From Heptranchias perlo (taxonomy: Eukaryota): a stretch of 64,000 nucleotides of DNA. The position numbers and the translations under genes were made by a program. The notes beneath the pieces are model-generated. The model saw only the letters and a program-made list of their open reading frames with translations. It was not told the DNA's origin and searched no databases. The stretch covers positions 2,170,001 to 2,234,000 of the forward strand of contig NC_090363.1 in NCBI RefSeq assembly GCF_035084215.1. Reading direction: 5' to 3'. This document shows positions 22,112-26,513 of this stretch, one piece after another. Each line of letters begins with the position of its first letter. Within the stretch, counting starts at the first letter, position 1.

Positions 22112-22520
22112 CTAAATCCATTGCACATCACAAGAGAATGAAAGGGCAGGGTGAGAGGACTGAACTAGTATCGACTATTGTTAGCTTTGGACTCACATTA
22201 AAAGCACTCATGGGTGCAGTCAAACACACTCAAAGCACGCATACTTTCCCAATGTTCCCTTGATCTAGTTATTATACTAAAATTAAGTGTTATCGGGCGC
22301 TTATAATTGAATGGACGAAATACACAGTTTACACGAGGTAAGCTCCGAAAGCTTGTGATTTTCAAATAAAACTGTTGGACTATAACCTGGTGTTGTAAGA
22401 TTCCTTACATCTTATAAAGTAAGCACTGACAGTCCATTTTTTATTAAACCGTTCTGTTTTAACGGTACGTCACTTGCTGGCAGAAGATCCCCAGTTAGCT
22501 CCCCACCCGATCCTTCGTAC

Positions 22521-22667
22521 CTGACTAATGCTTGTTGCAAGAAGCGATTTTCTTGCTCGGTGAACCTCCTGATACTCCTCCTGACCCTGGACTGTGACCT
22601 CCGTCTCCGCGGCAACCTCGCTGACTGCCCGGCCGGTTGCCATGCTCGCCATCTTCTTTGCCAAACC
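22521..22667 (-). CDS. EHMT2: EHMT2 duplicated histone-mimic exon, copy 4 (4c)
   Basis: 147 nt, phase 0-0, polypyrimidine plus TAG acceptor, CAG|GTAC donor. Encodes GLAKKMASMATGRAVSEVAAETEVTVQGQEEYQEVHRARKSLLATSISQ. Confidence 0.85.
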
Positions 22668-22983
22668 CTACGTGGGAATTAAAGAAGAACGGAGAGTCAG
22701 GGAGGGGTAACGGTGACGACGATGATGATGGTAAGACAAGGGCGGGGGGGGAGGAGGAGGAGGAGGAGGGAGAAGAGGCGGGGTCAACAAGGGGCGGGGT
22801 CAACGAGAAGAGGTGGCAGAGCATTAAATCCTCCCCTTGTAATCCTGTGACAGTAGTACAGGTATATACAGCCCCTCATTTGACACAATTAAAACACCGT
22901 CAGAATTCCCTCCTTTATTTTAGCATTTCTATAACTCGTTCGCCGTGCTGTAGAAGGTGAGTTAACATTCTGTTCCCCCGTAC

Positions 22984-23127
22984 CTGACTAAAGCTGCCTT
23001 TCAGTATGGACTTTCTCGCTCTGTGGATCTCCTGGTTCTCGTCCTGACCCTGGACTGCGCGCTCTGCCTCTGCCGTTCCCCCAGCGGTATCATCGACTGC
23101 CCGTCCAGTAGGCAATCTTGACAAACT
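22984..23127 (-). CDS. EHMT2: EHMT2 duplicated histone-mimic exon, copy 3 (4b)
   Basis: 144 nt, phase 0-0, CAG|AGTTTG acceptor, CAG|GTAC donor. Encodes SLSRLPTGRAVDDTAGGTAEAERAVQGQDENQEIHRARKSILKGSFSQ. Confidence 0.85.
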
Positions 23128-23489
23128 CTGTGTGGAGTTAGGCATATTAGTCACAACAACAACAAAAAAAAAACCACCCAATCAAAGGCATCAGTCAGGA
23201 GGGTGAGTTACTTTGGTGCGCACAGTGACGGACTCTCCACGTTTGGCACCGTGTGCGCACCATATTACACTTCCCTCCACCAAACCGCACCACTGTAACG
23301 CACCGCCTGACTCATCCACGGCCGCTCACGTGTTACAATCACACTGAACAGAATAAAATCCAGGTTTATGCAAGGTAAGAGTCACACTTACTGGAATTTA
23401 CAGTTTTATTCAAACATCTTTCAGTAATTAAAAGGAGCAGTGTACAGCATTTAGGTTAGTGACAGAAGAACTGTTATTGTATTTATAAG

Positions 23490-23930
23490 GAAGAACTTGC
23501 ATTTATATAGCTCCTTTCGCGACCTCGGGACGTCCCAATCCGCTTCACAGCCAATTAAGTACTTTTCGAAGTGCAGTCACTGTTGCAATGTAGGAAATGC
23601 GGCAGCCAATTTGTACCCATCAAGGTCCACAGAAATGTGATAATGGCCAGACCACCTGCTTTACTGATATTGGCCAGGACACCGAGGAGAACTCCCCTGC
23701 TCTTCTTCAAAATAGTGGCCGTGGGATCTTTTACGTCCACCTGAGAGGGCAGACGGTGCCTCGGTTTAACGCCTTATCCAAAAGACGGTACCTCAGACAG
23801 TGCAGCGCTCCCTCGGTACCGGCACTGGGCGTGTCAGCCTTGATTATGGTCTCAAGTATCTGGAGGGGGACTTGAACCCTCGACCTTCTGACTCAGAGGC
23901 GAGAGAGTGCGACCCACTGAGCCACGGTGG
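23490..23930 (-). mobile_element. Deu-domain SINE, near full length
   Basis: Reverse-complement tRNA-like head (CCGTGGCTCAGTGGGTCGCACTC...TGAGTCAGAAGGTCGAGGGTTCAAG), Deu core and L2-like tail. Confidence 0.8.
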
Positions 23931-24676
23931 ACAATGATACCGTGAACACTCTGCCAAAATAGCCTGCACTGATTAAAAATAAGTTTTTAATAAAGGGTCA
24001 AACACTCCAGCCAGCCCAGAGCAGGATGTCATTCATCTATCCGGGCAGCCCAGAGATATGCCCTCCAACAGACTTTGCTCACAAGTCTCAGACTCGCAGA
24101 CGGGGAAAGGGACTCGATGAGCTCCCTGGGGTCTGTTCACCACCCCTTGCTGTCTATCCTCTTACCTTAGACAACCGGGGCGGGCGGGCGGGCGGGCGGG
24201 GGGGGGGCAAAGCAGCAAAGAAATGTGAAATAAAAAAAGGGGTGGGGCCAAATGGCCTGGTTCTGGTTTGGGTCGAGCCGGAGACCCACTCCCTCGTGGG
24301 TCGTGTGATTCGACCGCTCTGCGTTTGGCCGGTGCCCGGTGGGAGAGCGACAAGGCCGGGGAGGAGTGTAAAGGCCGGATGGTGGCGAGGGGAAGCTGGG
24401 ATACTGCTGTGCTTCCAAATCCAGGGCCACGCAAAAACACCTCGGTGGTGGTCAGCCGAGCTGGAACCGAGCTTCGAACAAAACACTTCGAACAAAATCC
24501 CTAACATGCGAGGGAGGGAGCGAGGGAGGGAGCGAGGGAATACAATACATTTTGTTTCCAGTATACTGCTCTTTTAACTGCCGACGCCGCAGTCGGTCGC
24601 CTTTGCTTATTTTAAACATTTCTATAACTCGTTCGCCGTTCTGCAGGAGGTGAGTGAACATTCTGTTCCCCCGTAC

Positions 24677-24829
24677 CTGACTAAAGCTGCCTTTCAGTAT
24701 GGACTTTCTCGCTCTGTGGACCTCCTGGTTCTCGTCCTGAGCCTGGACTGCGCGCTCTGCCTCTGCCGTTCCCACAGGGGCCTGACACGCCCGCTCACAG
24801 GGCATGCTCCCCAACTCCGTTGGCAATCT
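24677..24829 (-). CDS. EHMT2: EHMT2 duplicated histone-mimic exon, copy 2 (4a)
   Basis: 153 nt, phase 0-0, polypyrimidine plus CAG acceptor, CAG|GTAC donor. Encodes RLPTELGSMPCERACQAPVGTAEAERAVQAQDENQEVHRARKSILKGSFSQ. Confidence 0.85.
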
Positions 24830-24944
24830 CTGTATAGAAGTGGGTAAAGGTTACAAAGAATAGCAGATAGCCCAGGATCCTTGGGATAGGAGGTGCGGGA
24901 AAATACAATACAATACTTTACAGTGAAGCGCACTCTAAACCAGT

Positions 24945-25870
24945 TACATCGAGTCTACAGCACAGAAACAGGCCATTCGGCCCAACTGGTCTATGCCGGC
25001 ATTTATGCTCCACACGAGCCTCCTCCCTCCCTACTTCATCTAACCCCATCAGCATATCCTTCTATTCCCTTCTCCCTCATATGTTTATCTGGCTTCCCCT
25101 TAAATGTACCTATGCTATTTGCCTGAACTACTCCACGTGGTAGCAAGTTCCACATTGTCACCATTCTCTGGGTGAAGAAGTTTCTCCTGAATTCTCTATT
25201 GGATTTATTAGTGACCATCTTATATTGATGTCCCTCTAGTTCTGGTCTCTCCCACAAGTGGAAACATTTTCTCTATATCAACCCTATCGAACCCTTTCAT
25301 TATCTTAAAGATCTCTATCAGGTCACCCCTCGGCCTTCTCTTTTCTAATGATAAAAGCCCCAGGCTGTTTAGTCTTTCCTGATAAGGATAACCTCTCAGT
25401 TCTGGTATCATCCTTGTGATTCTTTTTTTTGCTTCTTCTCCAGTACCTCGATATCCTTTCTATAATATGGAGACCAGAACTGTGCACAAGAGTGAGAATG
25501 TTATGGGATGATTTGATTGAGGTTTTTAGGAACTGATAGGGTAGGTAGCGAGAAACTTTTTCCGGTGGTGGGGGGAGTCCAGGACATAACCTTAAAATCA
25601 GAGCCCGGCCACTCGGGAGAGAAGTCAGGGAAACATTTCTTCACGCAAAGGGTGGTAGAAGTGTGGAACTCTCTCCCACAAAAAGCAGTAAACGCTAGCT
25701 GAAGTATTCACTTTAAATCAGAGATCGATAGATTTTTGCTAGCCAAGGGTATTCAGGGATATGAAGTCAAGGTGGGTGGATGGAGTTAGGATACAGATCA
25801 GCCGTGATCTCACTGAATGACGGAACAGTCTCGAGGGGCTGAGTGGCCTCCTCCTGTTCCTAAGTTCCAA
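24945..25870. mobile_element. Two CR1 LINE fragments in opposite orientation (minus ~24945-25490, plus ~25500-25870)
   Basis: ORF-track CR1 C-terminal text on both strands (RPRGDLIEIFKIMKGFDRV; KHFFTQRVVEVWNSLPQKAV). Confidence 0.8.
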
Positions 25871-26253
25871 CAAATTTTTCCCATCTCACACGCCCCACCT
25901 TGCCTTAGATTTAAGGTTAAAACTACCCCTGACCTGGGGGTGATGTTAAACTTCTTTATCTGCTCTGCCCGCAAGGCTTTGTTCCCTGATCATTGGCTCA
26001 TTTGCAACCAGGCGCCAGTAGGATGGAAGGTCAGCCCATGTTGATGGGCTTTTGTTTATTTTGTTGTCCCCACGTTGTGGGGAGAGGGATGGGGGCATGG
26101 AAACTTCCTTTCCTCAGCTCAGTGTTCCTCCTCGTGGCCGCCCGACAAGAGATCGGGCACTCACCGCCGTGGTGGGAGGCAAATGCCCTGCCCAGCGGGT
26201 GATGCCAGCGTGCCCCGCCGTGTGAATCCCACCCCCCGCGGTTCGCTCGGTAC

Positions 26254-26513
26254 CTGACTGATGCCGGGTCTGGATATCGACTTCCGGGCCTTGTGAACCT
26301 TGGGCTTCTCGTCCGGAGCCGGGATCGGCCTGTGTGCCTCCACCGGTACCGCCGCCACCTCGTTGCCGGCCCGTCCCGTCGGCACGCTCAGCAGCTTCAT
26401 GGCCAAACTCTGGATGGAGTTCGGCGACTTGCTGATCCCGGTTAGTGTCATCTTGGCCCTGTTGGCCCCCAGTGCCTTGGTGGGGGAGACGGGGAACGTT
26501 TTGGCAGCATGTC
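26254..26513 (-). CDS. EHMT2: EHMT2 exon 4 (ancestral full-length exon carrying the automethylation motif)
   Basis: 260 nt, phase 1 to 0. Encodes GHAAKTFPVSPTKALGANRAKMTLTGISKSPNSIQSLAMKLLSVP...KPKVHKARKSISRPGISQ, compared with human GHATKSFPSSPSK...RAKMSMTGAGKSPPSVQSLAMRLLSMP...PKVHRARKTMSKPGNGQ. Confidence 0.95.

What the first reader, a model, noticed from the sequence alone, without database searches (positions are those of the whole stretch)
22112..26430. New splice acceptors recruited from former coding sequence in the duplicated exons
Seen: all four extra exons begin at the position of the internal CAG|AGT TTG (I-Q|S-L) of exon 4. The bases upstream of two acceptors still resemble the ancestral codons: ancestral CCGAACTCCATCCAG|AGTTTG (PNSIQ), copy 3 CCTAACTCCACACAG|AGTTTG (PNSTQ), copy 2 CCCACTTCTATACAG|AGATTG (PTSIQ). 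Copies 4 and 5 have TAG at the same place. Inference: duplicating the phase 1-0 exon whole would shift the frame, so use of the in-frame Gln codon CAG as acceptor converted it to a symmetric phase 0-0 module that could be amplified freely. This is a visible case of exon birth by partial intronisation.
Basis: partly seen in the sequence, partly recalled or inferred. Interest (0 to 1): 0.7.

Follow-up and report, generated by a model that had tools for sequence, protein, structure and literature searches.

The report
Gln codon became shark splice acceptor
In the shark G9a (EHMT2) gene four extra spliced exons copy the tail of one exon and start exactly at its internal CAG codon, which likely became their splice acceptor after a partial-exon duplication: a known route to new exons, here multiplying a histone-H3-like motif fivefold in sharks and rays.

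Summary
Observation confirmed, interpretation partly. The gene is shark EHMT2/G9a (minus strand). Exon 4 (260 nt, phase 1-0) is followed by four in-frame exons (153, 144, 147, 153 nt) that start at its internal CAG|AGT. Transcript contigs show two junctions directly and fit the other two. Copy 3's flank matches the old codons at 9 of 12 bases (27 real acceptors: at most 6; P about 0.001 best-of-four). Copy 2 is marginal overall, but matches 7 of 8 at codon positions 1+2 (post hoc). Copies 4 and 5 show nothing. No trace of the rest of exon 4's head survives, so 'whole exon then intronisation' is not shown; a duplication starting inside the exon is simpler. The array is old: 75 of 76 shark/ray-type EHMT2 proteins carry five ARKS motifs; none of 109 outgroup or EHMT1 proteins carries more than one. 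The mechanism is a known class (latent splice site activated by internal duplication). The scan noted the ARKS array before on this same stretch, not on other DNA.

The parts
27036..27371 (-). EHMT2 exon 3 (phase 1-1), spliced to exon 4
   Evidence: tblastn to P0006; contigs of X1, X2, X5 join it to exon 4
26254..26513 (-). EHMT2 exon 4, parental exon, 260 nt, phase 1-0; tail 26409-26254 is unit 1
   Evidence: single-copy homologue in bony vertebrates
26410..26430 (-). Codons K-S-P-N-S-I-Q of exon 4, ending in the CAG (26412-26410) that the copies use as acceptor; the only in-frame YAG among 15 AGs scanned in 26511-26291
26278..26289 (-). ARKS motif of unit 1 (homologue of the G9a automethylation site ARKT)
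   Evidence: translation; function from PMC2175347, not tested here
24830..24844 (-). Copy 2 acceptor flank, reads P-T-S-I-Q; 7 of 12 matches, 7 of 8 at codon positions 1+2
24677..24829 (-). Copy 2 exon, 153 nt, phase 0-0; ARKS at 24701-24712
23128..23148 (-). Copy 3 acceptor flank, reads N-M-P-N-S-T-Q; 9 of 12 and 12 of 18 matches; CTAAT branch-point-like motif at -23..-19 (motif recalled, use untested)
22984..23127 (-). Copy 3 exon, 144 nt, phase 0-0, with a 12-nt internal deletion against relatives; ARKS at 23008-23019
22521..22667 (-). Copy 4 exon, 147 nt, phase 0-0, acceptor TAG at 22670-22668; ARKS at 22545-22556
   Evidence: joints in X2 and X3
21959..22111 (-). Copy 5 exon, 153 nt, phase 0-0, acceptor TAG at 22114-22112; ARKS at 21983-21994
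   Evidence: joint in X2 and X3, loose end into the next exon in X5
22913..23087 (-). Tract 93% identical to 24606-24780 (3' half of copies 2 and 3 plus about 70 nt of intron): likely gene conversion
19886..20006 (-). Next exon after the array (phase 0 start)

Best explanation
The four extra exons are copies of the tail of EHMT2 exon 4 whose acceptor AG lies at the exon's internal Gln codon, and they likely arose when a tandem duplication that began inside exon 4, a short way upstream of that CAG, copied the tail and the donor but not the old acceptor. Shown: positions, frame, splicing of the copies, shared GTAC donors, and the array in sharks and rays against one motif in outgroups. Inferred: with no strong acceptor in the copy, the weak CAG could only be ignored or used in frame, so the copy was harmless from the start. 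Upstream pyrimidine tracts and a branch site then built up, leaving 12-18 nt of old codons visible in copies 2 and 3. Further duplications of the phase 0-0 unit gave five ARKS motifs before sharks and rays split; these would offer up to five methyl-lysine docking sites for HP1-type readers (untested). That the acceptor derives from the Gln codon I put at about 0.9; the partial rather than whole duplication is the weaker step.
For: Register: copies start AGTTTG, GGTTTG, AGTTTG, AGATTG after YAG; in relatives the starts read SLAEKL, ALAMKL or ALAMKM, SLARSL, RLAMEL against SLAMKL. Splicing. Relic: copy 3 P 0.0003 with free window, 0.0012 best of four; copies 2 and 3 each 7 of 8 at codon positions 1+2 but 2 of 8 together at position 3, where exon 4 can drift (GC3 0.83); only 2 other of 5429 YAG sites reach 7 of 8. 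Donors: GTAC in 5 of 5 units, 1 of 20 other donors. Acceptors of copies 3 and 5 score below all 27 other acceptors (-4.4, -10.3 against -2.7 to 13.1), like the internal CAG (-7.2), while exon 4's true acceptor scores 12.6, so a copied true acceptor would be expected to win and shift the frame. No intron at this position in outgroups: read-through ORFs P0063, P0064, P0065, P0068 run unbroken across the exon. No trace of the exon head upstream of any copy.
Against: The breakpoint itself is not seen. Absence of the exon head is also expected from age: downstream introns keep no similarity either in 9 of 10 pairs. Copies 4 and 5 show no significant relic. Copy 2 fails the free-window test (P 0.12) and the own-shuffle test (P 0.05 and 0.19). 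The codon mask is post hoc, and copies 2 and 3 are related, so they are not two independent draws. The null rests on 27 acceptors of one gene, placed by hand. One genome only: no flank from another species was seen. The order of duplications is unresolved (support 91/70; AU p 0.555).
Confidence: 0.58

Rival explanations
1. One reading: exon 4 was duplicated whole with its own acceptor; inclusion shifted the frame, selection moved splicing to the in-frame CAG, and the first 104 nt became intron and decayed.
For: Gives the same end state. 260 is not a multiple of 3. The CAG is the only in-frame YAG among 15 AGs scanned. Age can erase the head, as it erased most downstream intron similarity. Copy 3's match may reach -21 (12 of 18), so the copied segment was longer than 15 nt.
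Against: No remnant of exon nt 1-89 or of the old acceptor in 12 tests. Needs a stage in which a strong acceptor (12.6) loses to a weak one (-7.2) 104 nt away, or extra mutations that remove it.
Confidence: 0.3
2. An intron once stood at Q|S in the elasmobranch or vertebrate ancestor; the 156-nt exon was duplicated with an ordinary acceptor, and exon 4 later lost that intron. The flank match is then chance or convergence.
For: Copies 4 and 5 have no relic; copy 2 is marginal in two of the tests. No chimaera or lamprey EHMT2 was retrieved.
Against: Amniote-like read-through ORFs have no intron there. Copy 3's match survives correction. Matches fall on codon positions 1+2. Needs an exact intron loss as an extra step.
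Confidence: 0.06
3. The exon-like flanks of copies 2 and 3 are not relics of the founding event but edges of a later gene-conversion tract from exon 4, or of a second, younger partial duplication from exon 4. This changes their age, not their exonic source, and can hold together with either route above.
For: Conversion-like homogenisation between copies 2 and 3 is visible: about 175 nt at 93%, reaching about 70 nt into the intron. Units 2-4 form a clade (97/89) and a tree joining them to exon 4 rather than to copy 5 is not rejected. Such long survival of near-neutral bases is otherwise surprising.
Against: Third codon positions of copy 3 match exon 4 at only 0.54, no better than the other copies (0.55-0.57), so any transfer from exon 4 is old.
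Confidence: 0.2

Closest known systems
Imprecise intron gain by internal tandem duplication with activation of latent splice sites (review PMC3443670, passages read; it cites Gao and Lynch 2009, not held, not read)
   Same: Tandem duplication inside a gene, a latent exonic site turned on, coding sequence added.
   Different: Here the new site is an acceptor at an in-frame Gln codon, the unit stands five times, and it is fixed across sharks and rays.
Potato RdRp intron gain by a duplication across an intron-exon boundary (PMC4974935, abstract and Introduction read)
   Same: One splice site comes from formerly exonic sequence, the other is inherited.
   Different: Mirror image: there the donor is new and the acceptor inherited; here the acceptor is new and the donor inherited. 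That case is recent with a visible breakpoint; this one is old with none.
Rogers AGGT model and vertebrate ATP2A1 (as described in PMC4974935 Introduction and PMC2891723 passages)
   Same: Exonic AG becomes an acceptor after tandem duplication in a vertebrate gene.
   Different: That model uses one AG|GT site for both ends and leaves the protein unchanged. Here the site is CAG|AG, the donor is the old one, and each event adds about 50 residues.
Intronisation (PMC3443670 passages)
   Same: Former coding bases now lie in an intron.
   Different: Defined there as needing no new DNA; here duplication came first and only 12-18 nt of former exon can be shown.
G9a/EHMT2 automethylation site ARKT, human K185 / mouse K239 (PMC2175347, PMC6180122, PMC8541646, passages read)
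   Same: Homologous exon and motif.
   Different: Five copies instead of one, and ARKS, the same four letters as histone H3 K9, instead of ARKT.

Membership tests
Exon/intron creation by internal duplication with a latent splice site | Tandem homologous units within one gene | tested here: met
   41-49% protein identity to the exon-4 tail
Exon/intron creation by internal duplication with a latent splice site | New splice site maps to formerly exonic sequence | tested here: met
   Register in all four copies; significant flank relic in copy 3, post hoc in copy 2, none in 4 and 5
Exon/intron creation by internal duplication with a latent splice site | New introns are spliced out of transcripts | tested here: met
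   Two joints listed, one exon start seen, one inferred, in contigs of one sample; copy 2/3 junction also in organism B
Exon/intron creation by internal duplication with a latent splice site | Splice site absent from the ancestral gene | tested here: met
   4 amniote-like read-through ORFs unbroken at Q|S; 0 of 109 outgroup/EHMT1 proteins with more than one motif; no chimaera or lamprey seen
Exon/intron creation by internal duplication with a latent splice site | Duplication breakpoint lies inside the exon | tested here: inconclusive
   Similarity ends by -21; loss beyond may be age
Rogers AGGT intron gain | AG|GT proto-splice site supplies both donor and acceptor; protein unchanged | tested here: not met
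   Site is CAG|AG; donors are the exon's own GTAC; protein grows
Intronisation in the strict sense | Intron made from exon by point changes with no new DNA | tested here: not met
   Units are duplicates
Whole-exon duplication followed by partial intronisation | Remnant of the exon head or old acceptor upstream of the copy | tested here: inconclusive
   0 of 12 tests significant; age may have erased it
EHMT2/G9a | Ankyrin, pre-SET and SET exons downstream; closest named homologues are EHMT2 | tested here: met
   tblastn of P0006 maps exons through the SET domain
EHMT2/G9a | ARK[ST] motifs are automethylated and bind HP1 | not testable with these tools
   Shown for mammalian ARKT and for an ARKS peptide of H3 in PMC2175347; not for shark units

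The most novel reading that the evidence does not exclude
One latent Gln-codon acceptor, switched on by a duplication that began inside an exon, let the ancestor of sharks and rays build a five-valent, exon-modular histone-H3K9 mimic on G9a; the old codons are still readable in the intron with a codon-position signature, and skipping of single units tunes the number of HP1 docking sites.
Probability: 0.3. Interest if true: 0.7.

Novelty: new member of a known kind. Interest (0 to 1): 0.47.

Why it matters
The source sequence of a gained splice site is rarely identified (PMC4974935 Introduction). This is an old vertebrate case where the source is still readable and the frame logic is plain, so partial and whole duplication can be compared in a minigene. 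The product is of interest in itself: a fivefold ARKS array on G9a kept across sharks and rays gives a natural test of whether the number of histone-mimic sites changes HP1 recruitment. I found no paper on it in three searches (listings only), in a library that lacks most subscription journals.

Tried and rejected
No run on record as RNA was listed; the 8 runs are contigs guessed to be RNA. The first laying was swamped by repeats, so its joint table showed no exon joints. X7 laid nothing and X5 did not cover copy 4; neither is evidence. Use of exon 4's own CAG as a minor acceptor could not be tested: contigs of X1, X2 and X5 run unbroken across it but contigs drop rare forms; none of 76 proteins lacks the exon head; a join from exon 3 would be out of frame. 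Local alignments of the exon head against the four upstream introns: 0 of 12 significant; upstream flanks among copies: 0 of 6 at 200 nt; at 40 nt only exon 4 with copy 3, 1 of 10. A gapped anchored score did not rescue copy 4. An acceptor shift of 12 nt in copy 3 was considered and rejected: the flank fits the old P-N-S-I-Q codons better than the missing S-L-A-E codons. No chimaera or lamprey EHMT2 came up in four protein searches; only the best 120 of 838 hits were listed. P0067 is an unrelated repeat protein and was dropped. The metagenome scan found no relative among 114 pattern matches. MaxEntScan was not available; a weight matrix from 27 acceptors of this gene stood in. A five-term paper search on exon duplication, phase and cryptic sites found 0 papers. 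Gao and Lynch 2009 is not held. No supplements were read.
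Full report
Identity. The stretch lies in a minus-strand EHMT2/G9a gene. Exon 4 translated from the window matches P0001 at 100%; its source labels P0001 as Heptranchias perlo, so the window likely comes from that shark or a near relative. tblastn of the full-length relative P0006 maps exons through the ankyrin and SET regions in the window and in 120 kb fetched beside it.

Anatomy. Exon 4 is 26513-26254, 260 nt, phase 1-0. 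Four exons follow: 24829-24677 (153 nt), 23127-22984 (144), 22667-22521 (147) and 22111-21959 (153), all multiples of three. Each is 41-49% identical in protein to the last 52 codons of exon 4. All five end CAG|GTAC; among 20 other donors of the gene one has GTAC, so the donor was copied with the unit. A second contig of the assembly, C669, carries the same array at 99.0% over 12.6 kb, with the same last 30 or more bases before each acceptor.

Are the junctions real? The 8 runs listed are contigs guessed to be RNA, from two studies. In X2 and X3 (one sample) a contig joins 22111 to 22521 and 22666/7 to 22983/4, skipping 409 and 316 nt with CT..AC ends, which are exactly the predicted introns; copy-3 pieces start at 23127. 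The copy-2 start is inferred: the X1 contig has 139 letters after exon 4 and ends 61 letters from a variant at 24751, and the X2 contig has 78 letters and so ends beside that variant; both fit 24829. In organism B (X5) a contig joins the copy-2/3 end to a copy 3 that begins with 15 other letters reading S-L-A-E-K, and copy 5 runs into the next exon.

Register. MAFFT placed copy 3's four-codon gap at its start, which would spoil the claim. Relatives read SLAEKL at copy 3, ALAMKL or ALAMKM at copy 4 in rays, SLARSL at copy 5 and RLAMEL at copy 2 in some, against SLAMKL in exon 4. The gap is thus an internal 12-nt deletion of this species and all four copies start at the Ser after the Gln. Copy 4 starts shorter in some unnamed relatives.

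Is the flank similarity above chance? I placed 27 other acceptors of the gene by hand and used them as the null. At -15..-4 they match the exon-4 flank at 0-6 of 12 (mean 2.7). Copy 3 matches 9, copy 2 7, copy 5 5, copy 4 4. With a free window length copy 3 has P 0.0003 (0.0012 as best of four); copy 2 has 0.12 and copies 4 and 5 0.28. The mismatches are not spread evenly: copies 2 and 3 match 14 of 16 at codon positions 1+2 and 2 of 8 at position 3 (Fisher P 0.005), as expected if exon 4, with GC3 0.83, drifted at silent sites. At positions 1+2 each matches 7 of 8; real acceptors reach at most 4, and only 2 other of 5429 YAG sites reach 7. I chose that mask after seeing the data, and copies 2 and 3 are related, so the safe statement is one clear relic and one likely relic.

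How much exon was copied? Nothing beyond -21 matches. Exon nt 1-89 and the old acceptor find no partner in the four upstream introns (0 of 12 tests). This cannot decide the matter, since downstream introns have also lost similarity in 9 of 10 pairs. The argument for a partial copy is one of economy. By my weight matrix exon 4's true acceptor scores 12.6 and the internal CAG -7.2; a whole copy would be expected to splice at the strong site and shift the frame, whereas a copy lacking it is either skipped or read in frame. The CAG is the only in-frame YAG among 15 AGs scanned, though one in-frame AAG upstream scores higher (1.8). Copies 3 and 5 still score below all 27 other acceptors, and all four have AG-free zones of 46-161 nt against a median of 29, which fits signals built upstream of an exon-derived spacer (inference).

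Age and polarity. 60 of 61 proteins from the first searches and 15 of 15 further ray proteins have five H[KR]ARK[ST] motifs; one isoform, P0014, lacks unit 3 in frame. Of 109 further proteins (bony-vertebrate EHMT2; EHMT1 of sharks, rays, birds and crocodilians) 104 have one motif and 5 none in their first 750 residues. Four unnamed read-through ORFs, mammal- and bird-like, run unbroken over the whole exon, so there is no intron at Q|S there; a human splice variant at c.328+2 fits a phase-1 start (PMC13350482, one table passage). The array therefore predates the shark-ray split, roughly 250-300 million years ago (recalled). No chimaera or lamprey gene was retrieved. In a tree of 67 units, units 1, 2, 4 and 5 each group across species, unit 3 does not, and units 2-4 form a clade (97/89); the place of unit 5 is weak (91/70). 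On a reduced set of 40 rows, a tree with unit 5 outside is not rejected (AU p 0.555), so one or two recruitments remain open. Copies 2 and 3 share a 93% tract running about 70 nt into the intron, a sign of conversion among units.

What the module carries. Each unit holds ARKS. In mammals the homologous ARKT is automethylated and binds HP1, and G9a methylates ARKS and ARKT peptides alike (PMC2175347, passages); phosphorylation of the next residue by Aurora B blocks HP1 binding (PMC6180122, PMC8541646, passages). A multivalent docking site is the likely reason the array was kept; this is untested.

Comparison and verdict. Activation of latent splice sites by internal tandem duplication is described (PMC3443670, passages), with a mirror case in potato (PMC4974935, abstract and Introduction). 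The case fails the Rogers AGGT model and strict intronisation. It is a new, well-preserved member of a known kind. Searches for the shark G9a array found no relevant paper (listings only). Interest 0.47.

Noticed in passing
window 21959-26513 (-): Five ARKS motifs, one per unit. The outgroup EHMT2 and EHMT1 rows printed read ARKT; shark and ray EHMT2 units read ARKS, the histone H3 K9 wording.
   Followed up: partly
window 22913-23087 and 24606-24780: Copies 2 and 3 are 93% identical from mid-exon to about 70 nt into the intron while their 5' halves differ: likely a gene-conversion tract.
   Followed up: partly
window 23127-23110 (-): Copy 3 lacks 12 nt, between two TTG triplets, that organism B and the other proteins have.
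   Followed up: yes
window 9167-12199 and 12565-15628: A 3-kb direct duplicate at 97.8% around a run of N holds two EHMT2 exons twice, the upstream copies frameshifted: likely an assembly artefact.
   Followed up: partly
window 19886-20006 (-) against L007/L008: The exon after the array differs from contig C669 by one extra and one missing base, which shift the frame between them in the window: likely sequencing errors.
   Followed up: partly
G000:C669 (33 kb): Second copy of the gene's 5' part at 99.0% identity, likely a haplotig.
   Followed up: partly
window about 35358-36584 (-) and 52404-53795 (-): Two similar GC-rich open stretches that look like BTB/zinc-finger genes read on the opposite strand (ZBTB12-like, a neighbour of EHMT2 in mammals; name recalled, not tested).
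   Followed up: no
window 45535-47052 (+): A 506-codon open frame resembling a CENP-B/tigger-derived gene (recalled, not tested).
   Followed up: no
proteins P0014 and P0004: Annotated isoforms skip unit 3 (P0014) or, apparently, exon 3 (P0004) in frame.
   Followed up: partly
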